A stretch of DNA of 58,331 nucleotides from Minisyncoccota bacterium (GTDB taxonomy: Bacteria; Patescibacteriota; Minisyncoccia; UBA6257; JAGOQP01), in NCBI GenBank assembly GCA_041665445.1, contig JBAYIV010000003.1, positions 1 through 58,331 on the forward strand, given 5' to 3'. Shown piece after piece: positions 4,224 through 43,665 of the stretch. Below the pieces are notes generated by a model. The model was not told the DNA's origin, did not search any database, and was given only the letters and a program-made list of their open reading frames with translations. Every line of letters starts with the position of its first letter. The stretch's first letter is position 1. Made by a program: the position numbers and the translations under genes.

Positions 4224-4613
4224 ATGGAGGAAAAACTTAAAAAAATTCTTTTAGTTGAGGATGATCCTTTTTTGTCGTCGTTGCTCAAGAATCGTTTTGC
4301 GCAAGAAAAAGTTGAGGTGATGCATGCGCACGATGGCGATGAGGCGCTGGCAATGCTCAAGACCGCAACTCCCGACGTGGTGTTGCTTGATTTGATATTG
4401 CCCAAAAAATCGGGGTTTGAAGTTTTGCAGGCAATGCGCGAAGACCCTCAGCTTGCCAACGCGCCGGTTATTATTATCTCCAATCTGGGACAGCCAGAAG
4501 ACATAGAAAAAGGACAACAGCTGGGAGCGATTGAATATTTTATTAAAGCTAAGACATCTATTGAGGATTTGGTGGGCAACGTTTTGTCCTTTTTGACATC
4601 GGAAAAGGGATAG
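4224..4613 (+). CDS. Single-domain response regulator (receiver, CheY-like)
   Basis: KILLVEDD...PDVVLLDLILP...IIISN...FIKA receiver motifs. Likely start ATG at 4224. Confidence 0.9.
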   Translation: MEEKLKKILLVEDDPFLSSLLKNRFAQEKVEVMHAHDGDEALAMLKTATPDVVLLDLILPKKSGFEVLQAMREDPQLANAPVIIISNLGQPEDIEKGQQLGAIEYFIKAKTSIEDLVGNVLSFLTSEKG

Positions 4614-4821
4614 GGGTGTTACGTGTTTTGCTCGCAGGGAGATAGAGGGGGGGGTTATTCACACCCCCCTTTGTTTTTTGGTAGCGTTTTATGTATACTC
4701 ATTGAGAAGACACGATGGTCGATCTCCCGGAATAATCACAGGGAGTTCGTTTGGGTGCTAGAGCACTCAGGCGTGATATAAAAATATAAAAGAATTTAAA
4801 AGTAATTTATTTATCGTACGT

Positions 4822-5379
4822 ATGCAGAATTTAAAGAGGGGGTTTACGCTCATTGAGCTTCTTATTGTTATCGGTATTTTGGCCATTTTGGTTGCCGCGG
4901 TGGTGGTGGTATTAAACCCGGCACAGCTCTTGGCACAGGCTCGCGACGGACAGAGAATGTCCGATATGGATTCTATCCGGAGCGCGGTGAATTTGTACCT
5001 GGCGACGGTGGATGCTGCGGCCCTAACGACAACGTCGACCTACACAGTCGCGGGAACGGCTACGCCGACCGGATGGACGGGAGCACTTGTGGTTGCTTCG
5101 ACCGCCGTTGACGGAACGGGGTGGGTTAAAGTAGCTCTCAATCAGGTATCCGGAGGAAGTCCTATCTCAAAGCTTCCAACTGATCCAACAAACCTTGGAT
5201 CTTATTATTACGGATACAAGGCAACGAGTACGGCGAGCACATTTAAGCTCATTGGTCGTTTAGAGAGTGTCAAGTATCAGGGAAAAATGACGACTGATGG
5301 TGGAACTCTTAACACCTGCACTAATTTTACAGAAGCGACTTGCTTCTATGAAATCGGATCTGATGTAACTGGTCTCTAA
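4822..5379 (+). CDS. Major type IV pilin (PilA-like)
   Basis: Prepilin site KRG|FTLIELLIVIGILAIL followed by the hydrophobic helix LNPAQLLAQARD. Confidence 0.92.
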   Translation: MQNLKRGFTLIELLIVIGILAILVAAVVVVLNPAQLLAQARDGQRMSDMDSIRSAVNLYLATVDAAALTTTSTYTVAGTATPTGWTGALVVASTAVDGTGWVKVALNQVSGGSPISKLPTDPTNLGSYYYGYKATSTASTFKLIGRLESVKYQGKMTTDGGTLNTCTNFTEATCFYEIGSDVTGL

Positions 5380-5395
5380 ACGAGAAACATCGTGA

Positions 5396-5429
5396 AAAAC
5401 AAAAAGACCCGCATGGGTCTTTTTGTTTT
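5396..5429. terminator. Intrinsic terminator after pilin
   Basis: AAAACAAAAAGACCC-GCAT-GGGTCTTTTTGTTTT. Confidence 0.8.
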
Positions 5430-5450
5430 GGTGAGGGGGTGGTATACTAC

Positions 5451-5565
5451 ATGAAATGTAACGTGTAAAAATAAAAAATCCTACTTGCTGGTAGGCGGGT
5501 AAAATGGTTGGAAAGCCCGCGGCACATCCATTATTTTACATTTTTATATTTGCATTTTGATTTTC
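5451..5565. repeat. Heptamer-like (AAAATGY/AAAAATC) inverted repeat upstream of the pilus ATPase
   Basis: A-rich left arm ATGAAATGTAACGTGTAAAAATAAAAAATC and T-rich right arm TTATTTTACATTTTTATATTTGCATTTTGATTTT. Confidence 0.6.
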
Positions 5566-5566
5566 T

Positions 5567-7279
5567 ATGTTTCGCTTTCCTCAAGAAAAACTCAAAAGCA
5601 TTTTGGAAACACAAAAGCTCGTTACCCCCGAGCAGTTTACCGATGCGCTTGCCGATGCCACGCGCATGAACCAGAGCGTGGGAGATGTACTGATTTCCAA
5701 GGGATATATTACGGAAGATTATCTCTATAACCTTGTGGCGACTCACTTGAGCGTTGAGCGGGCCAACTTAAACGTACGGGGAATCGATCACAAGATTTTA
5801 GAATTGGCGGATGAGAAATTTTGTCGCGAGAAGGGTGTTATCCCGTTTTCTCAAGATGCGGATAAAACCATCAATGTTGCCATGGAGGACCCCAGCGATC
5901 TGCCGACGATTGAGTTTCTTGAGCACAAGCTTAATACGCGTATCCGTCCGTTTTTAGCCAGTCCGCGCGATATGGCGAAAGGATTTTCGCTGTTTGGGTC
6001 CGAGTTGACCGATGATTTTAAAAAGATTATTGACCAGAATGTCCGCACGTCACTGGAGAAAAAAATCAATCTGGCTAACGACGAAGATGCCGCCGCGCAA
6101 TTGCCGGTGGTGGATATCGTCAATAGCTTGCTGGCGTACGGGGCATCACTGAATGCATCAGATATCCACATTGAAGAATTGGAGGATGTGGTTATGGTGC
6201 GGTTCCGCATCGATGGTATTTTGTATGAAATTATCCGGATGCCCAAAGAAATTCAGGCGGCGATTGTGGCGCGTATTAAATTATTAGGCGCACTCAAGAT
6301 CGACGAACATCAGCGTCCGCAGGATGGCCGATTCCGATTTAATGCCGTGCCCACGGTCATCGATGTTCGCGTTTCTATTTTGCCAACATTGTATGGAGAA
6401 AAAATCGTCATGCGTTTATTGCCCGCATCTCAGCGGCCGCTCTCACTGGCTGAAGTGGGTATGTTGGAAGATACCGCGCAGTTAGTCGCTGAAAATATCA
6501 AGAAAACGTACGGCATGATCTTGGTCACTGGTCCGACCGGATCAGGAAAAACAACGACGCTGTATGCGGTTTTAAATATGCTCAATCAGCCGCAGGTTAA
6601 CATTGTGACGATTGAAGATCCTATTGAATACAATATTAAATACATCAATCAAATTCAGATTAATCCGATTGCGGGCATTACGTTTGCGGCGGGACTTCGA
6701 TCTATTTTGCGCCAAGACCCCAACATCATTATGGTCGGTGAAATCCGCGACGAAGAAACGGGGGACATTGCGGTCAACGCGGCGCTGACGGGGCACTTGT
6801 TGTTGTCGTCATTGCACACCAACGACGCGCCCACCGCCATCCCGCGTTTAATGGATATGAAAATCCAGCCGTTTTTGATTGCGGCGGTTCTCAATTTGGT
6901 AATGGCACAGCGTCTCGTGCGCAAGATTTGCATTGATTGCATTGAATCATACGACGTTTCGGCGGAGCTCGAAAAAGATTTGCGGGAACAACTTAAGTTG
7001 ATCGGTGTTGACGCGCAGAGCGTGCCGCATACGTTATATCGGGGCAAGGGATGTAAGGCCTGCAATAATACCGGTTATCGCGGCCGCATGGGTATTTTCG
7101 AAGCCTTTGAGGTTTCTGAAAATATACGCAAGATTATTATCTCGGGAAAATTTTCTCTTGATGAAGTTATCAGAACGGCGCGACAAAATGGCATGGTGAC
7201 GATGTTTGAAGATGGTTTGCGCAAAGCCGCACTGGGCATGACGACCATTGAGGAAGTGCTCCGCGTTATCAGAGAGTAA
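5567..7279 (+). CDS. pilB: Type IV pilus assembly ATPase PilB/GspE family
   Basis: Walker A GPTGSGKTT, TIEDPIEY, LRQDPNIIMVGEIRD, LHTND and CxxC...CxxC Zn motif. Confidence 0.93.
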   Translation: MFRFPQEKLKSILETQKLVTPEQFTDALADATRMNQSVGDVLISKGYITEDYLYNLVATHLSVERANLNVRGIDHKILELADEKFCREKGVIPFSQDADKTINVAMEDPSDLPTIEFLEHKLNTRIRPFLASPRDMAKGFSLFGSELTDDFKKIIDQNVRTSLEKKINLANDEDAAAQLPVVDIVNSLLAYGASLNASDIHIEELEDVVMVRFRIDGILYEIIRMPKEIQAAIVARIKLLGALKIDEHQRPQDGRFRFNAVPTVIDVRVSILPTLYGEKIVMRLLPASQRPLSLAEVGMLEDTAQLVAENIKKTYGMILVTGPTGSGKTTTLYAVLNMLNQPQVNIVTIEDPIEYNIKYINQIQINPIAGITFAAGLRSILRQDPNIIMVGEIRDEETGDIAVNAALTGHLLLSSLHTNDAPTAIPRLMDMKIQPFLIAAVLNLVMAQRLVRKICIDCIESYDVSAELEKDLREQLKLIGVDAQSVPHTLYRGKGCKACNNTGYRGRMGIFEAFEVSENIRKIIISGKFSLDEVIRTARQNGMVTMFEDGLRKAALGMTTIEEVLRVIRE

Positions 7280-7289
7280 TCAATGCAAT

Positions 7290-8498
7290 ATGCAATTTTA
7301 CTACAAAGCATTTAAAAGCAATGGGGCGGTCATCGAGGGTCAGCTTGACGGCCGCAATTTGCAGGAAGTGCTGGCAAAAATTGCCGGCATGGATGCCAAG
7401 CCGCTTTTGGTTAAACCATTGGGCGCAGCGCAACGGCGAGAGGGTCTTTTCTCTCGTGGAAAAATCACACTTGAAGACAAGGTTTTTTTGACGCGCTATC
7501 TGGGGTTGATGTTGAAGGTAGGAACTGATTTGTTTAAGGCTATTGATATTCTTATTGAAGACTTTGATAAGCCAGCAATGAAAGCATTGCTTTTGGAAGT
7601 TCGGGGTAATCTTGAAAAAGGGCAGCCATTCTATACAACATTTGCCCGCTATCCAAAGACATTTTCGTCGTCGTTTGTGAATTTGATTAAAGCCGGAGAG
7701 ATGTCGGGAAAACTTGAGTCGGTGTTTGATGATTTAAGCGTTTCGCTGGAGAAGGAGCGCGATCTGCGTCAAAAGGTAAAAGGCGCGTTGATGTATCCGG
7801 TTATTCTGCTTATCGCATCCATTTTTGTGATGGTTTTAATGGTGAGCTACACCATTCCGCGGGTTGCTAATGTTTTTTCCGGCAATGGCGTGCAGCCGCC
7901 AGCGTTTTCACGGGTTGTTTTTGCAATAGGTATTTTTTCGGGGGATCATCTTATTATCATTCTTGCCGCACTCATCTCTATTATGGTGGGTGGATATGTG
8001 TTTTTTGGGCTGACGATGGTGGGGAGGAATTTGCTCTATCGTATCGGTATTAAAACGCCGGCGATAGGCCGCGTTATTAGAGAGACATCCCTCCAGCGTT
8101 TCGCTTCGACTTTTTCATCACTTCTGTCTTCCGGCATGCCGATCATTGATGCGCTGAATGTGACCGCCGATTCAATCCCCATGCCCGAACTCAAAAATGC
8201 GCTTATTCGGATTGGCTCGGAGGGATTGGCGAAGGGGTTGACGGTCGGCGAGGCTTTTAAGCGCGAGCCGGTTTTTCCCAAGGTGGTATCCAATCTAATT
8301 GCGGTTTCGGAAAAGTCGGGGCACATTGAAAATATTCTTCAAACATTGTCGGAATTTTATGCCTCAAGCATCGAGGGATCTCTCAAAACACTAATGACGT
8401 TTATTGAACCGATTCTCCTGCTTTTTATTGGTGTTATGATTGGCGGTATCGCGTTGGCAGTTATCATCCCGGTCTATCAGTTAACCGCTAATTTCTAG
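7290..8498 (+). CDS. pilC: Type IV pilus platform protein PilC/GspF
   Basis: Two T2SSF repeats (AGEMSGKL; VSEKSGHI...FIEPILLLFIG). Start ATG at 7290. Confidence 0.92.
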   Translation: MQFYYKAFKSNGAVIEGQLDGRNLQEVLAKIAGMDAKPLLVKPLGAAQRREGLFSRGKITLEDKVFLTRYLGLMLKVGTDLFKAIDILIEDFDKPAMKALLLEVRGNLEKGQPFYTTFARYPKTFSSSFVNLIKAGEMSGKLESVFDDLSVSLEKERDLRQKVKGALMYPVILLIASIFVMVLMVSYTIPRVANVFSGNGVQPPAFSRVVFAIGIFSGDHLIIILAALISIMVGGYVFFGLTMVGRNLLYRIGIKTPAIGRVIRETSLQRFASTFSSLLSSGMPIIDALNVTADSIPMPELKNALIRIGSEGLAKGLTVGEAFKREPVFPKVVSNLIAVSEKSGHIENILQTLSEFYASSIEGSLKTLMTFIEPILLLFIGVMIGGIALAVIIPVYQLTANF

Positions 8499-18061: not shown

Positions 18062-18619
18062 ATGAAACCGTTTACTATCGTCGGTATTTCAGGGAGTCTT
18101 CGGTTGGGATCTTACAACAGCAGTTTATTGCGTGTGGCACAGCACTATGCGTCAGCACAGGGGATGTCAGTTGATATACTAGACATCGGATCACTTCCGC
18201 TTTTTAACCAAGACCATGAGCGTGATGCGCATGAAGCGGTCATGCAGTTAAAACAAAAAATCAAAGGGGCTGACGGCATACTTTTCGTGACGCCGGAGTA
18301 TAACTATTCAATTTCCGGCTCGCTTAAAAATGCGATCGAGTGGGGGACTCGTCCGTACGGCGACAATAGTTTTGATGGCAAGCCGGCGGGAATTATGAGT
18401 GTATCAACGGGGATTCTGGGCGGTGCGCGTGCGCAGTATCATCTGCGGCAGATACTGGTCAGTCCCAATGTACATGTGATGAATCATCCCGAGATTATGG
18501 TGGGGCAGGCAAAAGAAAAATTCAACGAGGTGGGGGAATTGATTGATGTTCAAACGCAAGAGCGGGTAAAGGAATTTTTAGAGGCGTTTGCACAGTGGAT
18601 GGGGAAATTTGCACAATAG
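18062..18619 (+). CDS. NADPH-dependent FMN reductase
   Basis: GISGSLRLGSYN, TPEYNYSISGSLKNAIEW, GGARAQYHLRQ. Confidence 0.92.
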   Translation: MKPFTIVGISGSLRLGSYNSSLLRVAQHYASAQGMSVDILDIGSLPLFNQDHERDAHEAVMQLKQKIKGADGILFVTPEYNYSISGSLKNAIEWGTRPYGDNSFDGKPAGIMSVSTGILGGARAQYHLRQILVSPNVHVMNHPEIMVGQAKEKFNEVGELIDVQTQERVKEFLEAFAQWMGKFAQ

Positions 18620-18638
18620 TAGCGTTATTGTTTGGCGT

Positions 18639-18673
18639 ATATAAAAACACTCCGATGTATCGGAGTGTTTTTA
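18639..18673. terminator. Bidirectional terminator
   Basis: ATAAAAACACTCCGAT-GT-ATCGGAGTGTTTTTAT. Confidence 0.75.
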
Positions 18674-18678
18674 TTCCG

Positions 18679-18749
18679 TGGACCCACGGGGAGTCGGACC
18701 CCGACCTGTTCCATGCCATGGAACCGTTCTACCGCTATACTATGGGCCC
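18679..18749 (-). tRNA. tRNA-Ala(GGC)
   Basis: Cloverleaf with acceptor GGGCCCA/TGGGTCC including the G3:U70 Ala identity pair, anticodon arm GTTCC-ATGGCAT-GGAAC, T loop TCCGACT. Confidence 0.9.
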
Positions 18750-18871
18750 ATCAGTTGCCAAAAAGAGCAAAATCATAATACAATGGATTGAGACCATTCG
18801 CAACTACGCCTCCGTAGTTTCCGCCAAGGGCGGATCCATCCTTCGGGTGGCAACGGATGATAATACGCAAC

Positions 18872-18943
18872 GCCCCCGTAGTTCAACGGATAGAATCGGC
18901 CCGTCCTAAGGGTTTGATGTGGGTTCAATTCCTACCGGGGGCA
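18872..18943 (+). tRNA. tRNA-Arg(CCT)
   Basis: GCCCCCG/CGGGGGC acceptor, anticodon loop GTCCTAA, T arm GTGGG-TTCAATT-CCTAC. Confidence 0.9.
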
Positions 18944-19104
18944 CAGAGCAAGCAAATTGTTTTGCTTGCGTGGGGAATTGAACGCCGCCTGCCTACGGCA
19001 GGCAGGGAGCATGTGTGAGTAACAATGAGCACCGCGAGGCGGCGGTTAGACCAGTGCGAGCGACGGCGAGCAATGAGTCGGAGCCAATTCCTACCGAGGA
19101 CACA
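18944..19104 (+). mobile_element. tRNA-associated miniature structured element, copy 1
   Basis: About 84% identical to 21911-22053. Ends in an 18/20 duplicate of the tRNA-Arg 3' end (CAATTCCTACCGAGGACACA). Mobility is inferred, not shown. Confidence 0.65.
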
Positions 19105-19112
19105 CAAAAAAT

Positions 19113-19445
19113 ATGAGTAGAGAAATACCACATAACGGAACAGAAAATTATCATGTGATGCGCAAAATGACGGCTGATGAAGCGGCTACTCTTTTAGATT
19201 TCTTTCATCTCCCCGACGAGCATCCCGAGTACATTATCATTCCGTATCCCAATAAAACGGTTTACATTCATAAATGGACGCGTATTCCGCATATAAAAAA
19301 TAATTCTCAAGATCCCCATCTCATCAATGTCATCAGTGACACGGATGAGGTTGGATTGGTTGTCGCAAAAGAGCTGGAAAAGGCGCGAGAGGCGTTTGCT
19401 GCGATTAAGGCCAAAGATATTGATAAAATCGAGCCAATCAAGTAG
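19113..19445 (+). CDS. Hypothetical protein
   Basis: 110-aa ORF with ATG, between the element and tRNA-Ser. No recognised family. Confidence 0.6.
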   Translation: MSREIPHNGTENYHVMRKMTADEAATLLDFFHLPDEHPEYIIIPYPNKTVYIHKWTRIPHIKNNSQDPHLINVISDTDEVGLVVAKELEKAREAFAAIKAKDIDKIEPIK

Positions 19446-19458
19446 GGTGGTAAAAACT

Positions 19459-19545
19459 GGAGGGTTCGCATAGTGGTCTAGTGCGCCGCACTCGAAATGC
19501 GGTTGGGGAGAGATCCCCTCACAGGTTCAAATCCTGTACCCTCCG
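19459..19545 (+). tRNA. tRNA-Ser(CGA)
   Basis: Anticodon arm CCGCA-CTCGAAA-TGCGG, long variable arm, discriminator G. Confidence 0.93.
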
Positions 19546-19607
19546 CCCAGTGGTCAAACCATGTATTCTTCATAAAATTATTTGTGAGGTATCGACAGGG
19601 CTTTTAT

Positions 19608-20255
19608 ATGAAAAAATCTTTGCAGGAAAGGTTAATCAAGATAGCGCAAGAAAGGCAGGTTGCAACGGACGTATCTCATGATTTTGGGCATGTGCAGCGC
19701 GTTTTTAATCTTGCGGTGCAGATAGGAAAGAGTGTTAAGGCCGATTTGGACGTAGTCATTCCCGCAGCCCTTTTTCACGACACGGTTGTTTATAGAAAAA
19801 ATGACCCAAGGAGAAAAAATGAGACGGATGAAAGCGCGGAAGTTGCCGGCAATATTTTAACAAAAGTAAGCGGATATCCGAAAAAGAAAATAGAATTAGT
19901 GAAAGTTTGTATTCGTCAATGTTCGTTCACCAAAGGAATAAAGCCGGACGCATTGGAATCAAAAGTTTTGCAAGATGCCGATTTACTTGAGTCGACGGGT
20001 GCCATTTCCATCATGAGGACGTTTTCTTCGTGCGGGCAGATGGGTCGGATTTTCTATAATCCCCAAAGTCCGTTTTTCAAAAAGAATGAGATTGGTGTTC
20101 AATCCGGCGTCGGGTTATTCTATTCTCGCCTTTTGGTGGCGGAGAAAAGAATGCACACAAAATTTGCCAAGCGGATCGCCAAAAGAAGGACTGCCTTTTT
20201 AAAGAAGTTTTTAAATGAGCTGAAGACAGAACTTCGGGAGTCAAAAATAATTTAA
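19608..20255 (+). CDS. HD domain metal-dependent phosphohydrolase
   Basis: SHDFGHVQRV, AALFHD, LQDADLLESTGAI. Confidence 0.9.
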   Translation: MKKSLQERLIKIAQERQVATDVSHDFGHVQRVFNLAVQIGKSVKADLDVVIPAALFHDTVVYRKNDPRRKNETDESAEVAGNILTKVSGYPKKKIELVKVCIRQCSFTKGIKPDALESKVLQDADLLESTGAISIMRTFSSCGQMGRIFYNPQSPFFKKNEIGVQSGVGLFYSRLLVAEKRMHTKFAKRIAKRRTAFLKKFLNELKTELRESKII

Positions 20256-20315
20256 TCCATCACTGTTAGCATTCACGCATAGACAAACAAGGGTAGGGCT
20301 GTATCATCAAATAGT

Positions 20316-20609
20316 ATGTCTCAAGTCTTCCGGCGAACTAAAGAAAATTTTATCTGCGAGCATTGCGGCGCGCAAGTTGCTGGCAACGGCTACACCAACC
20401 ACTGCCCCAAATGTCTGTGGAGCAAGCATGCGGACACCAATCCGGGAGACCGTGCCGCGCAGTGCGGTGGCATGATGGAGCCGATTCGGGTTGAGACAAA
20501 GGGGAGAGAATACCGTATCGTTCACCGATGCACAACGTGTGGCGTGGAACGAATTGTTGATGTGGCTGATGGGGATGCAATAGAGATTTTAATCGCGGGA
20601 AAACAATAA
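20316..20609 (+). CDS. RNHCP domain protein
   Basis: FICEHCG...YTNHCPKCLWSKH...GDRAAQCGGMM...HRCTTCG. Confidence 0.88.
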   Translation: MSQVFRRTKENFICEHCGAQVAGNGYTNHCPKCLWSKHADTNPGDRAAQCGGMMEPIRVETKGREYRIVHRCTTCGVERIVDVADGDAIEILIAGKQ

Positions 20610-20612
20610 GCT

Positions 20613-21404
20613 ATGGGAAAGAAATTGCCGAAAATAGGTTTGGCGTTGGGTGGCGGGGGTGCTAAGGGATTGGCACATATCGGTGTTTTGGAGGTACTGC
20701 AAGAAAACGACATACCGATTCACGCAATTGCTGGCACGAGCATGGGGGCGTTGATTGGCGGGATGTACGCACTGGAAAGCGACGTTGATGTGGTTTATGA
20801 GTATGCGCGTCAAGCGATCGACGGAAAGTTTCTGCCGGTGTTTTTTGATATGCCTCGCGGAGGCGGATTTTCATCCGGAGAAAAAGCACACAGGCTCATT
20901 GACACTTTTGTGGATAACAAGACTTTTCAACAAACGTGTGTTCCTTTTTGTGCTGTGGCAACTGATCTTGCAAAGGGAACGGCAGTTGGTCTGAAAAGTG
21001 GATTGTTGTCATCGGCAATTCGCGCCAGCATTTCATATCCGCCTATTTTTGATCCGATGCGAATTGGCAAACGAGTATTGGTCGATGGAGGATTGAGCAA
21101 TCAGGTCCCGGTGGCATTTGCGCGCGCGATGGGCATGGATCGGGTTATTGCGGTTAACGTAGACGCCGATTATCAATTCGACCCAGAAAAGAGAATGACC
21201 CCCGCGACGCTTTCGCGTGTAACGATTAAGTTGCTTTTGCGATCCATCGCCGCATTCTCATCCGCATCAGCCGATGTGATTATCGCCCCTCGGGTGGGAG
21301 ATATGAGTGTGTGGTTGGATTTTAACAAGATGGATGAAATTATTTTGCGTGGCAGAAAAGCGACCGAAAAAGCACTCCCCGCAATACGAGCGCTGTTAAA
21401 ATAA
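20613..21404 (+). CDS. Patatin-like phospholipase
   Basis: LGGGGAKG, GTSMG and DGG motifs. Confidence 0.92.
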   Translation: MGKKLPKIGLALGGGGAKGLAHIGVLEVLQENDIPIHAIAGTSMGALIGGMYALESDVDVVYEYARQAIDGKFLPVFFDMPRGGGFSSGEKAHRLIDTFVDNKTFQQTCVPFCAVATDLAKGTAVGLKSGLLSSAIRASISYPPIFDPMRIGKRVLVDGGLSNQVPVAFARAMGMDRVIAVNVDADYQFDPEKRMTPATLSRVTIKLLLRSIAAFSSASADVIIAPRVGDMSVWLDFNKMDEIILRGRKATEKALPAIRALLK

Positions 21405-21412
21405 ATATTTTT

Positions 21413-21486
21413 TGGTCGGGCTGCTGGGAATCGGACCCAGACCGCATGCTCCCAAAGCATGTATACTACCACTATACTACAGCCCG
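21413..21486 (-). tRNA. tRNA-Pro(TGG)
   Basis: Anticodon arm CATGC-TTTGGGA-GCATG, T loop TCCGATT, encoded CCA. Confidence 0.92.
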
Positions 21487-21681
21487 TCACTTGCCATACT
21501 ATCGTGATGGCATACAAAAAGCAACAAAGTTGCTTTTTGTATGCCATCATGAGTACAATCAATGAGATGCATAGTGTCCCCGTGGTTTCCACCAGAGGCG
21601 GATGGCACTCGGGGTGGCAGCGGATGGCGTGAATGGCGGCGAGGTGCTTTGTGCAATCAAATCATTGCGTGCTCAATAATA

Positions 21682-21753
21682 GCCCCCGTAGTTCAACGGA
21701 TAGAACAGGGCTCTTCTAAGGCCTTGATGTGGGTTCGACTCCTACCGGGGGCA
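21682..21753 (+). tRNA. tRNA-Arg(TCT)
   Basis: Anticodon loop CTTCTAA; body nearly identical to tRNA-Arg(CCT). Confidence 0.92.
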
Positions 21754-21807
21754 CTGGTTTATATTGCACGGAGCGGTTTTTTCTGTTACTCTTTTACGGA
21801 ATCAAAA

Positions 21808-21879
21808 GCCGCGGTAGCTCAGTGGTAGAGCTTTCGCCTGAAGAGCGAAGAGTCGTCAGTTCGATTCTGACCCGCGGCA
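21808..21879 (+). tRNA. tRNA-Phe(GAA)
   Basis: Anticodon arm TTCGC-CTGAAGA-GCGAA, T arm GTCAG-TTCGATT-CTGAC. Confidence 0.94.
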
Positions 21880-22071
21880 CAAGCGAGTGAAGCGAACGCA
21901 GAAGCCGCGGAGAGCGAGCAAACTGCTTTGCTCGTGATCAGAAATCGAACGCCGCCTGCCTACTGGCAGGCAGGGAGCATGTGCGAGTAGTAACGAGCAT
22001 GGCGAGGCGGCGGCTAGACCACTGCGAGCGACGGAGAGCAGTGAGTCCGAGCCGATTCTGACCCGCGATAC
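21880..22071 (+). mobile_element. tRNA-associated miniature structured element, copy 2
   Basis: Core 21911-22053 is homologous to 18945-19085. Ends in CGATTCTGACCCGCG, a perfect 15-nt duplicate of tRNA-Phe 21862-21876. Confidence 0.65.
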
Positions 22072-22148
22072 ATCCCTGGCCGACGATCAACAACCGAAGA
22101 AGACTCTCGTTGTGTGTTGTGAGTGGTTGGCCGTCGGTTAAGGAATAT

Positions 22149-22220
22149 GGTGGCCTTAGTGTAGTGGTAACACAACAGTTTGTGGCACTGTTATCACGGG
22201 TTCAAATCCCGTAGGCCACC
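22149..22220 (+). tRNA. tRNA-His(GTG)
   Basis: Encoded G-1, anticodon arm ACAGT-TTGTGGC-ACTGT, C73. Confidence 0.93.
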
Positions 22221-22348
22221 CAGAAATCGATTGTTTTTAAAAGTCATTCATGCTACACTTCAAAAAGTCCGAAGGGGGATTTTATTTTTGGTCTGTCTGA
22301 AAAATGACGCCGGAAATGACTAGTATTTAAGCGGTTTTTAAAACATCT

Positions 22349-24379
22349 ATGGCAGCAAAAAAAGCTCAAGCGCCGGAAGAAAAAAAGGTATCATACAGCG
22401 CAAAGGATATCTATGTTCTTGAGGGACTAGAGCCCGTTCGTAAGCGTCCGGGGATGTACATCGGATCGACCGGTATCGACGGTCTGCACCACCTGGTGTG
22501 GGAGGTTGTTGATAACTGCATTGATGAAGCGATGGGCGGATTTGCGACGCATATTCGCGTTGAATTGCTTCCTGACAACATGATTAGCGTGACCGATAAC
22601 GGTCGCGGTATTCCGGTTGACATTCATTCGCACACAAAGAAATCGGCGCTCGAAACGGTTTTGTGTACGTTGCATGCGGGAGGAAAATTCGGCGGTGAGT
22701 CATATAAAGTCGCCGGCGGATTGCATGGCGTGGGCGTATCGGTGGTTAACGCATTATCATCGCGGATGAAAGTTGAGGTGGACCGAGATGGCGGATCATA
22801 TGTGCAGGAGTATAAGCGAGGTGTGCCGCAATATAATGTCAAAAAAGTCGGCAAATCAGATGCAACTGGGACAAAAGTAACCTTTCAACCAGATGTGGAG
22901 ATCTTCTCAACACTCGAGGTTGATCGGAAAAAAATTATTGAACACTTGCGTCAGCAGGCCTTTTTGGTCAAGGGAATTGAGATTGAAATTATTGATACGC
23001 GCGGCGAGGTGCCGTTGTATCATGCCTTTCGGTTTGAGGGCGGATTGCTTTCGTTCCTGTCGTATTTAAATGAATTTGAGGAACCACTCAACGGCACGCC
23101 GTTTTATGTCAATAAGGAATATGAAAAAATTCAGGTTGAGGCGACGTTTGTGTATGACAATGGCGCCGATACGAAAGAATTGAGTTTTGCCAACAATATC
23201 TATACATCCGATGGCGGCATGCACTCGACCGGATTTCGCAGTGCGTTAACGCGCGTGATAAACGATTATGCTCGTGAAACGGGATATATAAAAGACAAAG
23301 AAGAAAATCTGACGGGCGATGATGTGCGCGAAGGATTGGTCGCGATTGTTTCGGTGAGAATCGGCGATCCGCAATTTGAAGGACAAACCAAGGCGCGTCT
23401 GGGTAATCCGCCCGCCCGCACGGCCGTTGAGGCGGTCGTGGCTGAAGCGCTCAAGGAATACGTGCAAAAATATCCCAATGAAGGCCGTACCATTATTGCC
23501 AAGTGTATGCTGGCGGCAAAGGCACGCAAGGCCGCCAAGGCAGCCAAGGAAACGGTTTTGCGCAAGGGGCCCTTTGAGGGGCTTTCGTTGCCGGGGAAAT
23601 TAGCCGATTGTACCTCCAAGGACCCGGCTGACTCCGAGCTTTTTATTGTTGAGGGAGATAGCGCCGGTGGATCGGGCAAGCAAGGACGTGATCGGCGTTA
23701 TCAGGCCATTCTGCCGTTGCGCGGAAAAATTTTAAACGTGGAAAAATCTCGTTTGGATAAAATGCTTGCCAACAACGAGATCAAATCGCTCGTTATCGCA
23801 TTAGGAACGGCAATCGGCGCCGACTTTACCGCAGACAAAATCCGCTATCACAAAATTATTATTATGACCGATGCGGATGTTGATGGTGCTCACATTCGTA
23901 CGTTGTTGCTGACCCTATTTTACCGTCACTTCCGTGAGATTATTGAGCGAGGATATTTGTACATCGCACAGCCGCCGTTGTATCGTGTCAGTTTCGGGAA
24001 AGAATTTAATTATGCATATGATGATGGGGCAAAGGATGTGCTGGTAGCACAACTGCAACGCATGCGTGCCGCAAAGAAGAAACCCGCTGCGCCAAATGCC
24101 GATGACCGCATTGTTGAGTCGGTGCCCTCGGAGAGCGAGGAGGCAGTTACCGACCAAAAGGGTATCACCATACAACGGTACAAAGGGTTGGGAGAAATGA
24201 ATCCTGATCAGTTGTGGGAAACAACCATGGATCCGGCGCGTCGCATGCTCTTACAAGTGGCCATTGATGACGGACAAGAGGCTGATCGGTTGTTTGATGT
24301 TCTTATGGGAGAGAAAGTCGCACCGCGCAAGCACTTTATCCAAAGTCGCGCAACCACCGTTAAAAATCTTGACATTTAG
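22349..24379 (+). CDS. gyrB: DNA gyrase subunit B
   Basis: EPVRKRPGMYIG, VEGDSAGG, PLRGKILNV, IMTDADVDG, QRYKGLGEM. Confidence 0.95.
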   Translation: MAAKKAQAPEEKKVSYSAKDIYVLEGLEPVRKRPGMYIGSTGIDGLHHLVWEVVDNCIDEAMGGFATHIRVELLPDNMISVTDNGRGIPVDIHSHTKKSALETVLCTLHAGGKFGGESYKVAGGLHGVGVSVVNALSSRMKVEVDRDGGSYVQEYKRGVPQYNVKKVGKSDATGTKVTFQPDVEIFSTLEVDRKKIIEHLRQQAFLVKGIEIEIIDTRGEVPLYHAFRFEGGLLSFLSYLNEFEEPLNGTPFYVNKEYEKIQVEATFVYDNGADTKELSFANNIYTSDGGMHSTGFRSALTRVINDYARETGYIKDKEENLTGDDVREGLVAIVSVRIGDPQFEGQTKARLGNPPARTAVEAVVAEALKEYVQKYPNEGRTIIAKCMLAAKARKAAKAAKETVLRKGPFEGLSLPGKLADCTSKDPADSELFIVEGDSAGGSGKQGRDRRYQAILPLRGKILNVEKSRLDKMLANNEIKSLVIALGTAIGADFTADKIRYHKIIIMTDADVDGAHIRTLLLTLFYRHFREIIERGYLYIAQPPLYRVSFGKEFNYAYDDGAKDVLVAQLQRMRAAKKKPAAPNADDRIVESVPSESEEAVTDQKGITIQRYKGLGEMNPDQLWETTMDPARRMLLQVAIDDGQEADRLFDVLMGEKVAPRKHFIQSRATTVKNLDI

Positions 24380-43404: not shown

Positions 43405-43489
43405 GGGTAGGTAGTCTCGTAGGGGCCGAGGGCGGTCTGTAAAACCGTTGGCCAATGTGCCCGCGTGAGTTCAACTCTCACCCTACCCA
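43405..43489 (+). tRNA. tRNA-Tyr(GTA)
   Basis: Anticodon arm GCGGT-CTGTAAA-ACCGT, long variable arm. Confidence 0.9.
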
Positions 43490-43504
43490 CACGATAAAGC
43501 AACC

Positions 43505-43577
43505 GCCACCTTAGCTCAGCTGGTAGAGCAACTGTTTTGTAAACAGTAGGTCCCCGGTCCAAATCCGGGAGGTGGCT
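43505..43577 (+). tRNA. tRNA-Thr(TGT)
   Basis: Anticodon arm ACTGT-TTTGTAA-ACAGT, T loop TCCAAAT. Confidence 0.93.
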
Positions 43578-43665
43578 CAGAGTAATCAGGCAGAGCAACC
43601 AACCGAAGGCTTGCGCGCATGGGCAGATATCGGTATCGTACTCTCAAATAAAGTTTCTAAAATAA

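What the first reader, a model, noticed from the sequence alone, without database searches (positions are those of the whole stretch)
21859..22071. Each element also carries an inverted, tRNA-matched anti-T-arm strand with one extra base
Seen: inside the shared core, the only strongly divergent block is the reverse complement of the host tRNA T arm. Copy 2 has TCAGAAATCGAAC (21938-21950) against Phe GTTCGATTCTGA (21859-21870). Copy 1 has GTGGGGAATTGAAC (18970-18983) against Arg GTTCAATTCCTAC (18923-18935). Both have one unpaired purine at the same relative place. Copy 1 matches its neighbour (CAATT), not the near-identical tRNA-Arg(TCT) (CGACT). Copy 2 is also preceded by GCCGCGG (21904-21910), the Phe 5' acceptor strand. 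The anti strand can pair either with the distal duplicate, closing a multibranch structure, or with the tRNA itself. Inference: either target sequence is copied in both orientations during insertion (fold-back or template switch), giving an attC-like single-strand hairpin with an extrahelical base, or this is a 3'-trailer RNA switch that competes with T-arm folding and controls tRNA maturation.
Basis: partly seen in the sequence, partly recalled or inferred. Interest (0 to 1): 0.85.

Follow-up and report, generated by a model that had tools for sequence, protein, structure and literature searches.

The report
tRNA-matched arms of RtT-like trailer elements
Behind many tRNA genes of this tiny-genome (Patescibacteria) bacterium sits a small gene-less folded element that carries an inverted copy and a direct copy of that tRNA's own tail, a re-addressable relative in design of the old, unexplained E. 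coli RtT repeat, whose way of spreading and function remain unknown.

Summary
Both window copies carry, at the stated coordinates, a block complementary to the T loop and T-stem 3' strand of the tRNA just upstream. In 65 copies from 22 genomes the block follows its own tRNA (6.22 of 7 variable positions against 4.66 for other tRNAs; 0 of 10,000 shuffles).

The block is the inner arm of a longer inverted repeat of the tRNA 3' end. That repeat runs through the acceptor strand and the spacer or terminator hairpin. Together with the distal duplicate it forms a direct-inverted-direct triplication around a conserved core. The core has strong RNA-type covariation (40 of 44 pairs; G-U 30, A-C 4).

The "extra purine" is not general (50 of 65 copies have none), so the attC analogy fails on that point. 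The same plan occurs behind tmRNA, at the 3' end of topA, and with a second, unrelated core in this genome. Sites are filled or empty between relatives. No reverse transcriptase, extra integrase, IS110 or TnpB tracks the element.

The closest known thing is E. coli RtT (same plan, no sequence match). I read it as an insertion-derived, re-addressable module rather than a tRNA-maturation switch. The mechanism is unproven.

The parts
18872..18944 (+). tRNA-Arg(CCT), host of copy 1; T arm GTGGG-TTCAATT-CCTAC
   Evidence: ARAGORN; Rfam tRNA 51.7 bits
18948..18969 (+). Copy 1, hairpin P1 (GCAAGCAAA-TTGT-TTTGCTTGC), inserted in the inverted arm
   Evidence: helix 1 is 99.7% paired and all 9 pairs covary
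18970..18983 (+). Copy 1, anti-T-arm strand GTGGGGAATTGAAC: complement of tRNA positions 53-65 with one extra G
18984..19084 (+). Copy 1 conserved core: long-range helix CGCCGCC/GGCGGCG, mini palindrome, variable hairpin, and P4/P5 with a GAG-CGACGG-CGA tip
19085..19104 (+). Copy 1 distal direct duplicate of tRNA-Arg positions 56-73 plus CA (18 of 20 identical)
21808..21880 (+). tRNA-Phe(GAA), host of copy 2
21881..21903 (+). Copy 2 spacer; related spacers follow tRNA-Phe in three other genomes
21904..21910 (+). Copy 2, 5'-acceptor-like strand GCCGCGG: the outer part of the inverted arm, which pairs with the acceptor 3' strand
21914..21935 (+). Copy 2 hairpin P1, with compensatory changes relative to copy 1
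21938..21950 (+). Copy 2 anti-T-arm strand TCAGAAATCGAAC, with one extra A
21951..22052 (+). Copy 2 conserved core
22053..22072 (+). Copy 2 distal direct duplicate of the tRNA-Phe 3' end (15 nt perfect, 18 of 20 overall)

Best explanation
The anti-T-arm block is the inner arm of an inverted copy of the host tRNA's 3' end. Each element is built as follows: tRNA 3' end (T loop, T-stem 3' strand, acceptor 3' strand, trailer or terminator hairpin); then its reverse complement (a 5'-acceptor-like strand, in this family a hairpin P1, then the complement of the T-stem strand and T loop); then a conserved ~100-nt structured core; then a second direct copy of the tRNA from position 56/57 onward. This is a direct-inverted-direct triplication of the target around a cargo RNA.

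I read the elements as gene-less, insertion-derived modules that have spread from tRNA to tRNA, and also to tmRNA and rarely to other gene ends. At each new site the arms are made from the local target. The core is copied from, and later homogenised with, other copies in the genome.

The most economical route is inferred, not shown: copy-choice or template switching. Fold-back at the palindromic trailer would give the inverted arm. The near-universal T-loop sequence would supply the short homology to switch into an existing core and back out at position 56/57, using host replication and recombination enzymes only.

The core is under RNA-level structural selection, so the sense transcript does something; its biochemical role is unknown. 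The arms let the element close on itself (anti strand with distal copy), or alternatively pair with the live tRNA tail. In design this is the Patescibacteria counterpart of the E. coli RtT repeat, generalised to at least 29 tRNA species.
For: Family and structure: the covariance model finds 2-11 copies in 16 of 20 genomes of the family, and copies in Paceibacterota, Taylorbacteria and Saccharibacteria MAGs. Of 44 pairs, 40 show changes on both sides; 90.7% of cells are paired against about 40% for slid controls. G-U to A-C is 30:4 in the core helices.

Target link: 72 of 86 copies lie at most 250 nt behind a same-strand tRNA, covering 29 isoacceptors; others lie behind tmRNA. The anti block matches its own tRNA at 6.22 of 7 variable positions against 4.66 for other tRNAs, with 0 of 10,000 shuffles reaching that. 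Duplex energy is -13.7 against -8.6 kcal/mol.

Inverted repeat: with P1 removed, the stretch from G53 to the end of the anti strand folds as one hairpin. The anti strand pairs with tRNA positions 53-64 over a mean of 9.8 bp. The acceptor 3' strand pairs with the spacer tail over at least 4 bp in 48 of 53 copies. The acceptor-like strand covaries with the tRNA acceptor (CGGG against CAGG).

Same plan elsewhere: it occurs at the topA 3' end (about 75-nt diverged repeat, anti strand matched to CAAAGACCAT). It also occurs with a second, unrelated core behind six other tRNAs of this genome, and with a third variant behind tmRNA.

Gain and loss: an identical tRNA-Phe in G006, and a syntenic tRNA-Arg(CCT) in G001, lack the element. 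The Tyr-Thr site is empty in G014 but filled in three genomes of the same genus. Tandem arrays exist, and this genome has a 74-nt perfect repeat.

Concerted evolution: cores are homogenised within a genome while P1 stays locus-specific.

Arms as copies: the anti strand has drifted 14.7% and the distal copy 8.3% from the tRNA; both changed at 6 sites against 6.0 expected under independence.

No dedicated enzyme: reverse transcriptase is uncorrelated with the element. There is one tyrosine recombinase per genome whether or not the element is present. IS110 is in 0 of 20 genomes and TnpB in 1 of 20.

RtT has the same closing-helix plan.
Against: Several loci (Leu-GAG, Tyr-GTA, Ile-GAT, Gln-TTG) carry the element in many genera. 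That fits long vertical retention and a host function as well as it fits mobility.

A plain fold-back does not explain why P1 sits exactly between the acceptor-like and T-stem-like parts of the inverted arm.

The breakpoints (inverted arm ends at 53/54, duplicate starts at 56/57) are the same in two unrelated core families. That could equally indicate a site-specific enzyme.

Strong RNA-type selection on the core is unexplained by a purely DNA-level process.
Confidence: 0.42

Rival explanations
1. Folded single-strand recombination site. The hairpin made by the tRNA tail and its inverted copy (or by the anti strand and the distal copy) is an attC- or CTX-attP(+)-like folded site. A host tyrosine recombinase (the single Xer-type enzyme) recombines it with the T loop of a tRNA gene at 56/57. 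The element brings a replacement 3' end and displaces the original.
For: The direct repeat starts in the T loop, as in T-loop-class integrations, and often runs past the tRNA end. Breakpoints are fixed in two unrelated core families. Tandem arrays exist. The long imperfect hairpin has a side branch. G-U far exceeds A-C, showing the sense strand folds as a single strand. Every genome has a tyrosine recombinase.
Against: There is no conserved extrahelical base (50 of 65 copies have none). There is no extra or IntI-like recombinase, and the same single Xer is present in genomes without elements. An element-borne replacement 3' end would tie each lineage to one tRNA, and would not by itself explain re-addressing to 29 isoacceptors, tmRNA and topA. 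Repeat length varies from 12 to 80 nt.
Confidence: 0.15
2. Cis-acting trailer switch. In read-through pre-tRNA, the anti strand and the acceptor-like strand pair with the T arm and acceptor 3' strand. This competes with the cloverleaf and so gates 3' processing or decay. The distal copy acts as the competing partner.
For: The full-length fold of copy 2 pairs the tRNA 3' half with the anti and acceptor-like strands (MFE -114.4 kcal/mol, z = -3.5). In copy 1 the anti strand pairs with the distal copy instead. Window copies have no terminator between tRNA and element. The core is under RNA-type selection.
Against: Twenty-five of 51 longer spacers contain a hairpin followed by a T run between tRNA and element. 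The element is dispensable for identical or orthologous tRNAs and absent from about three quarters of this genome's tRNAs. The same plan occurs at the topA 3' end. The anti strand is not kept closer to the tRNA than the apparently unselected duplicate. Mismatches of the anti strand against the tRNA show no G-U bias overall (22 against 18).
Confidence: 0.12
3. Trans-acting, tRNA-specific antisense or guide RNA family. A common protein-binding core (for example the tandem G-A hairpin GAG-CGACGG-CGA) carries a variable 5' guide. The guide is the acceptor-like strand, P1 and the anti strand, forming a three-way junction on the target. It would address one tRNA each, for modification, surveillance or repair. 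New guides would arise by inverted duplication of the target.
For: The layout is a modular variable arm plus a constant core. Two guide segments flank a hairpin. Guides covary with both the T loop and the acceptor. Cores are homogenised within genomes like a gene family. Loci are retained orthologously.
Against: No partner protein was identified. Bacteria have no known guide-RNA modification system. A built-in target mimic (the distal copy) would be self-inhibitory. Adjacency to the target is not needed for a trans-acting guide. The elements are dispensable and patchy. The anti strand has drifted 14.7%.
Confidence: 0.1
4. tRNA-shaped RNA gene. The unit from the 5'-acceptor-like strand to the distal acceptor 3' strand is transcribed on its own and folds into an acceptor stem plus an extended T stem. 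P1 stands in place of the tRNA body and the core in place of the T loop. RNase P, RNase Z and the CCA-adding enzyme could then process it like a tRNA or tmRNA.
For: The acceptor-like strand lies just before P1 and is complementary to the distal acceptor strand. P1 sits where nucleotides 8-48 of a tRNA would emerge. Many units are bracketed by two terminator-like hairpins.
Against: Window copies 1 and 3 have no acceptor-like strand. The type B family has no P1. The distal acceptor strands carry mismatches (copy 1 CGAGGAC against CGGGGGC). No promoter is evident in the 10-15 nt between terminator and element.
Confidence: 0.07

Closest known systems
RtT RNA / rtT (rttR) 178-bp repeats of the E. 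coli tyrT-tyrV operon (Rfam RF00391)
   Same: It sits directly behind a tRNA gene and occurs in tandem units. Each unit ends in a duplicate of the tRNA 3' end (AATCCTTCCCCCACCACCA). An internal antisense strand (GGGGAAGG) pairs with that duplicate to close a multibranch core. Its function is still unknown (bioRxiv 10.1101/2024.07.17.603846). A small CGAGCG-NN-AGCGAG hairpin resembles the P5 tip of the present core, but only weakly (5.7 bits).
   Different: There is no sequence or model match: RF00391 gives no hit on the window even at E <= 10, and model R1 gives only the local motif in E. coli. RtT is tied to tRNA-Tyr alone. Here the arms are re-written for at least 29 isoacceptors, tmRNA and a protein gene. 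The RtT anti strand covers positions 61-68, not the T loop.
Integrative elements at tRNA/tmRNA genes (T-loop sublocation class), including integrase-less cis-mobilisable elements (CIMEs)
   Same: Direct repeats start in the T loop and run to or past the 3' end. An intact tRNA is kept at one side. Tandem accretion and presence/absence between relatives are seen.
   Different: The element is 110-190 nt with no gene. No integrase tracks it. An internal inverted copy of the target is not a feature of such elements. The element serves many different tRNA targets with locally matched arms.
Integron attC sites and the folded attP(+) of CTX-type phages
   Same: The site is an imperfect palindrome that would fold in a single strand, placed next to conserved cargo and sometimes in arrays. 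The folding is strand-specific (G-U far exceeds A-C).
   Different: There is no conserved extrahelical base, no RYYYAAC/GTTRRRY boxes, and no IntI. The arms are copies of the target gene rather than element-specific sequence.
Inverted triplications (DUP-TRP/INV-DUP) and quasi-palindrome template switching in replication
   Same: The arrangement is direct-inverted-direct reiteration of one segment, with a palindrome at the turn and short homology at the junctions.
   Different: Those are one-off rearrangements. Here the same plan recurs at dozens of loci with a conserved, selected cargo.
IS110/IS1111 bridge (seek) RNAs and IS200/IS605 guide sequences
   Same: An element-encoded strand is complementary to the flanking target, with guide segments on both sides of a hairpin.
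   Different: No DEDD recombinase is present in any of 20 genomes, and TnpB is present in only one. IS110 elements leave no long target duplication. Membership is not supported.

Membership tests
RtT RNA (RF00391) | Scores at or above the Rfam gathering threshold (45 bits) | tested here: not met
   No RtT hit on window 18500-22500 even at E <= 10. The E. coli repeats score 133-138 bits.
RtT RNA (RF00391) | Lies behind a tRNA gene and ends in a duplicate of that tRNA's 3' end | tested here: met
   for the present family; for E. coli.
RtT RNA (RF00391) | An internal strand complementary to the duplicated tRNA end closes the structure | tested here: met
   Helix 2 here; GGGGAAGG/CCUUCCCC in the Rfam consensus structure.
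RtT RNA (RF00391) | A stable RNA processed from the tRNA operon transcript | not testable with these tools
Integron attC | Conserved extrahelical bases in the folded strand | tested here: not met
   50 of 65 copies are in register, 9 have an extra base and 6 lack a base.
Integron attC | An integron integrase (IntI) in the genome | tested here: not met
   Most genomes have exactly one PF00589 match, with or without elements. An IntI-specific insertion was not examined.
tRNA-targeting integrative element (tyrosine integrase, T-loop class) | attL/attR direct repeats from the T loop to the tRNA 3' end | tested here: met
   Repeats of 12-80 nt starting at position 56/57.
tRNA-targeting integrative element (tyrosine integrase, T-loop class) | An element-encoded or dedicated integrase | tested here: not met
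   The element has no ORF, and recombinase count is independent of element presence.
IS110-type bridge-RNA element | A DEDD (PF01548) recombinase | tested here: not met
   0 of 20 genomes.
IS200/IS605-TnpB omega-RNA | TnpB (PF07282) in genomes that carry the RNA | tested here: not met
   Over the cut-off in 1 of 20 genomes.
Retroelement (retron, DGR, group II) | Reverse transcriptase co-occurs with the element | tested here: not met
   RT is present in 3 of 4 element-free genomes and absent from 4 element-bearing ones.
MITE | Terminal inverted repeats with a fixed-length target-site duplication | tested here: not met
   The duplication varies from 12 to 80 nt and the inverted arm is a copy of the target, not of the other element end.

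The most novel reading that the evidence does not exclude
The inverted arm is a working address. A protein-gene-free module would use its antisense arm, as RNA or single-stranded DNA, to pick the T loop of a tRNA gene. It would insert at the end of the guide:target helix at 56/57. Its guide would then be rewritten from the freshly duplicated target by templated (quasi-palindrome) correction. That would make it a self-reprogramming, nucleic-acid-guided mobile element that relies only on host enzymes or on catalysis by its own core. E. coli RtT would be a fossil of the same class.
Probability: 0.1. Interest if true: 0.9.

Novelty: new variant of a known kind. Interest (0 to 1): 0.62.

Why it matters
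If the reading holds, a large share of tRNA and tmRNA genes in a whole bacterial phylum with minimal genomes carry small structured modules whose arms are rewritten for each target. In this genome that is 12 of 46 genes. It would give a natural system for asking how a gene-less element chooses and copies its target. It would also give the 45-year-old, unexplained E. coli RtT repeat a family context and an experimentally tractable model. On the practical side, these repeats break assemblies: many copies sit at contig ends. They can also be mistaken for tRNA fragments or att sites in annotation.

Tried and rejected
- **Rfam.** A search at E <= 10 found nothing but tRNAs.
- **Loose DNA pattern in genome contigs.** It returned mostly chance hits in GC-rich genomes; only the CPR loci were confirmed by the model.
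- **Reverse transcriptase.** One copy lies next to a DGR cassette, but RT presence does not follow the element, so I dropped it.
- **Dedicated integrase, IS110 and TnpB.** All were rejected.
- **"The anti strand tracks the live tRNA, not the distal copy."** I first inferred this from 73 against 13 sites and from duplex energies. I withdrew it after an independence test showed that both arms simply drift from a slowly evolving tRNA, and that the G-U excess in the T-loop pairing can be explained by base composition.
- **Empty against filled Tyr-Thr sites within one genus.** The tRNAs and flanks are too diverged to place the junction base by base.
- **Turnover between the two genomes of this genus.** G003 contig 24 is 99.6% identical to a contig of another genus, so I did not use it.
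- **Literature.** Four searches found no description of the family.

Full report
**1. Observation**

ARAGORN and Rfam place tRNA-Arg(CCT) at 18872-18943/4 and tRNA-Phe(GAA) at 21808-21879/80. Behind each lies a ~150-nt stretch whose cores are 82-88% identical.

- In copy 1, GTGGGGAATTGAAC (18970-18983) is the complement of tRNA positions 53-65 with one extra G.
- In copy 2, TCAGAAATCGAAC (21938-21950) is the complement of the tRNA-Phe T loop and T-stem 3' strand with one extra A. It is preceded by GCCGCGG (21904-21910), the sequence of the tRNA-Phe 5' acceptor strand.
- Each copy ends in a duplicate of the tRNA from C56 to the discriminator plus CA (19085-19104 and 22053-22072).

**2. The family**

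A third copy follows tRNA-Arg(CCG) on another contig. A fourth follows tRNA-Leu(GAG).

I built a covariance model from the three close copies. It finds 2-11 copies in 16 of 20 genomes of the taxonomic family. It also finds copies in MAGs labelled Paceibacterota, Taylorbacteria and Saccharibacteria, and in 20 of 401 genomes sampled across the phylum. The last figure is an underestimate, because the model misses other core types even in this genome.

On 34 aligned copies, 40 of 44 modelled pairs show changes on both sides. Paired cells are 90.7%, against 34-42% when partners are slid. Outside the arm helix, non-Watson-Crick cells are G-U 30 against A-C 4. So the strand of the tRNA's sense folds as a single strand, most simply as RNA. 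Rfam has no matching family.

**3. Link to tRNAs**

Of 86 copies, 72 have a same-strand tRNA at most 250 nt upstream, covering 29 isoacceptors. Four more follow tmRNA.

At tRNA positions 57-63, which vary among tRNAs, the reverse complement of the internal block matches its own tRNA at 6.22 of 7 positions. It matches other tRNAs at 4.66 of 7. None of 10,000 shuffles reaches the observed value. Positions 54-62 are 86-100% complementary. An unusual T loop (TCCGATT in tRNA-Ile) is mirrored by TTGGA instead of TTGAA.

**4. What the block belongs to**

Most copies have a 30-60-nt spacer between tRNA and element. The spacer's last 4-7 nt repeat the tRNA's 5' acceptor strand and change with it (CGGG against CAGG when the acceptor changes).

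I removed hairpin P1 and folded the stretch from G53 to the end of the anti block. It forms one long hairpin.

- The anti block pairs with positions 53-64 (mean 9.8 bp).
- The acceptor 3' strand pairs with the spacer tail (at least 4 bp in 48 of 53 copies).
- The spacer's own hairpin forms the tip.

In 25 of 51 longer spacers that tip is a stable hairpin followed by a T run, like an intrinsic terminator.

So the anti-T-arm strand is the inner part of a 20-45-nt inverted copy of the whole tRNA tail. In this family P1 is inserted exactly between the acceptor-like part and the T-stem-like part. With the distal duplicate, the layout is direct-inverted-direct around the core. The distal duplicate is 12-80 nt long, often continues into the spacer, and in several loci leads into a further tandem unit.

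**5. Which partner?**

Where the tRNA and the distal copy differ, the anti block usually still fits the tRNA (73 sites against 13). I first took this as tracking of the live tRNA. A proper table for positions 57-64 shows otherwise.

| Measure (positions 57-64) | Value |
|---|---|
| Anti block departs from perfect complementarity to the tRNA | 14.7% of sites |
| Distal copy departs from identity to the tRNA | 8.3% of sites |
| Sites where both changed, observed | 6 |
| Sites where both changed, expected under independence | 6.0 |

(All.)

Both arms therefore look like copies drifting from a slowly evolving tRNA. Five of the six doubly changed sites still pair with each other, which is suggestive but too few to judge. 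Mismatches of the anti block against the tRNA show no overall G-U bias (22 against 18), unlike the core. This favours "copied from the target" over "selected to bind the tRNA".

**6. The extra base**

It is present in window copies 1 and 2. It is absent from the third copy of the same genome and from 50 of 65 copies overall. Nine copies have an extra base and six lack one. It is not a defining feature.

**7. The same plan beyond this core and beyond tRNAs**

A simple scan of all 46 tRNA/tmRNA genes of the genome finds an inverted copy plus a direct copy behind 12 of them.

- Six of them (Lys-TTT, Leu-TAA, Pro-CGG, Ala-TGC, Asp-GTC, Glu-CTC) share a second, unrelated three-hairpin core without P1.
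- The arm logic and junctions are the same there: the inverted arm ends at the complement of 53/54 and the duplicate starts at 57.
- The tmRNA gene has a third variant.
- In a relative, a model hit lies at the stop codon of topA. It is followed by a ~75-nt diverged duplicate of the gene's 3' end, and its anti block (ATGGTCTTTG) matches the start of that duplicate.

Arms made from the local target are thus a property of the process, not of tRNA biology.

**8. Dynamics**

- G006 has a tRNA-Phe identical to the window's, followed directly by tRNA-Pro with no element.
- G001 has tRNA-Arg(CCT) in the same synteny without an element.
- The Tyr-Thr pair is filled in three genomes of one genus. It is empty in the fourth, in the element-free genomes, and in this window at 43405-43578.
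- Several loci are occupied in many genera (Leu-GAG in 7 copies, Tyr-GTA in 6).
- Within a genome the cores are nearly identical between different loci, while P1 stays locus-specific and orthologous between genomes. That is concerted evolution confined between the two T-loop-derived arms.
- This genome's Leu-GAG copy is followed by a 74-nt perfect repeat reaching the P1 loop, a recent rearrangement.

**9. Enzymes**

| Candidate | Result in the 20 genomes of the family |
|---|---|
| Reverse transcriptase (PF00078) | Present in 3 of 4 element-free genomes, absent from 4 element-bearing ones |
| Tyrosine recombinase (PF00589) | Typically one match per genome, irrespective of the element |
| IS110 DEDD recombinase (PF01548) | 0 of 20 |
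| TnpB (PF07282) | Over the cut-off in 1 of 20 |

The element has no ORF. Any spread must use housekeeping enzymes or the nucleic acid itself.

**10. Closest known**

In K-12 the four RtT units behind tyrT and tyrV each end in AATCCTTCCCCCACCACCA, the tRNA-Tyr tail. In the Rfam consensus structure, an internal GGGGAAGG pairs with the CCUUCCCC of that tail to close the fold. That is the same plan.

There is no sequence or model relationship. RF00391 does not hit the window. My model hits only a short CGAGCG..GCGAG hairpin, at 5.7 bits. RtT's mode of action is still described as unknown.

**11. Mechanism**

The following is shown:
- the arms derive from the local target in both orientations;
- the cargo core is conserved and under RNA-type selection;
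- sites are gained or lost between relatives;
- cores are homogenised within genomes;
- no dedicated enzyme tracks the element.

The following is inferred. New copies arise by copy-choice events. A fold-back at the palindromic trailer creates the inverted arm. The near-universal T-loop sequence lets synthesis switch into an existing core and back to the target at 56/57. The same short homologies later confine gene conversion to the core.

The rivals are recombination of the folded hairpin by the host Xer enzyme, a cis trailer switch, a trans guide RNA, and a tRNA-shaped RNA gene. None is excluded, and each is weighed above. The ribozyme or self-inserting guide reading remains possible but has no direct support.

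**12. Limits**

The genomes are MAGs, and one contig is probably mis-binned. Alignments fitted to the model lean towards its structure. The arm statistics use ungapped registers.

Noticed in passing
window 18988-19002 and 21955-21970; also G000 contigs C2, C4, C5, C13, C15, C26: A mini palindrome CCTGCC-N3-6-GGCAGG(CAGG) occurs 10 times in the 724-kb genome, against 0-1 for seven control palindromes of the same composition. It sits inside the cores of copies 1-3. In this genome's Glu-CTC element and in three loci of relatives (L012, L023, L182) it is inserted in the distal tRNA duplicate. It looks like a separate tiny insertion.
   Followed up: partly
G000 contigs C2:88445, C4:20050, C6:12171, C6:18704, C14:16400, C15:4557 (outside the window): A second, unrelated three-hairpin core ('type B', conserved ...GGAGTCCGCC..GGCGGACGACGTGA) follows six other tRNA genes. 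It has the same inverted-plus-direct arm plan but no P1. The tmRNA gene (C1:99073-99409) has a third variant. Model R1 misses all of them.
   Followed up: partly
G000:C4:2704-2965 (locus L180): The tRNA-Leu(GAG) copy is followed by a 74-nt perfect repeat covering the tRNA tail, the whole spacer and the 5' half of P1, and stopping in the P1 loop. A similar repeat ends about 10 nt into P1 at a Tyr locus of G010 (L016). This suggests a recurrent breakpoint at P1.
   Followed up: partly
window 43405-43578: tRNA-Tyr and tRNA-Thr are 14 nt apart with no element. This is the empty state of a site that carries the element in six relatives.
   Followed up: yes
L203 (G003:C24) 4607-7644 = L202 (G008:C11): An element copy lies at the stop codon of topA, next to a complete DGR cassette on the other strand: RT with an IGNLTSQ/YMDD motif, avd, an asparagine-codon-rich template repeat, and a target gene with a C-terminal variable repeat.
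   Followed up: partly
L203 against L202: G003 contig 24 (7.6 kb) is 99.6% identical to part of a contig of G008, a different genus. This is a binning artefact or a very recent transfer.
   Followed up: partly
L019 (G004) and L198 (G010), 40-140 nt upstream of the element: Two copies follow a conserved non-tRNA sequence (...GATTTTG(C/T)(T/C)CGAAATA.ATTCGAACTT.GTCCAATA.ACACCGC plus a terminator). Rfam does not recognise it. It may be the 3' end of an unannotated RNA gene used as a target.
   Followed up: partly
L221 (E. coli K-12 1286200-1287800), minus strand: Each RtT unit also contains GAACCTTCGA, complementary to tRNA-Tyr TCGAAGGTTC, followed by a sense copy AAGGTTCGA(C/T)TC of the T arm. 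RtT therefore carries more inverted and direct tRNA pieces than its Rfam closing helix shows.
   Followed up: no
window 22073-22140: The stretch between the copy 2 duplicate and tRNA-His contains further inverted repeats (GGCCGACG...CGTCGG, CAACAAC...GTTGTG) that were not analysed.
   Followed up: no
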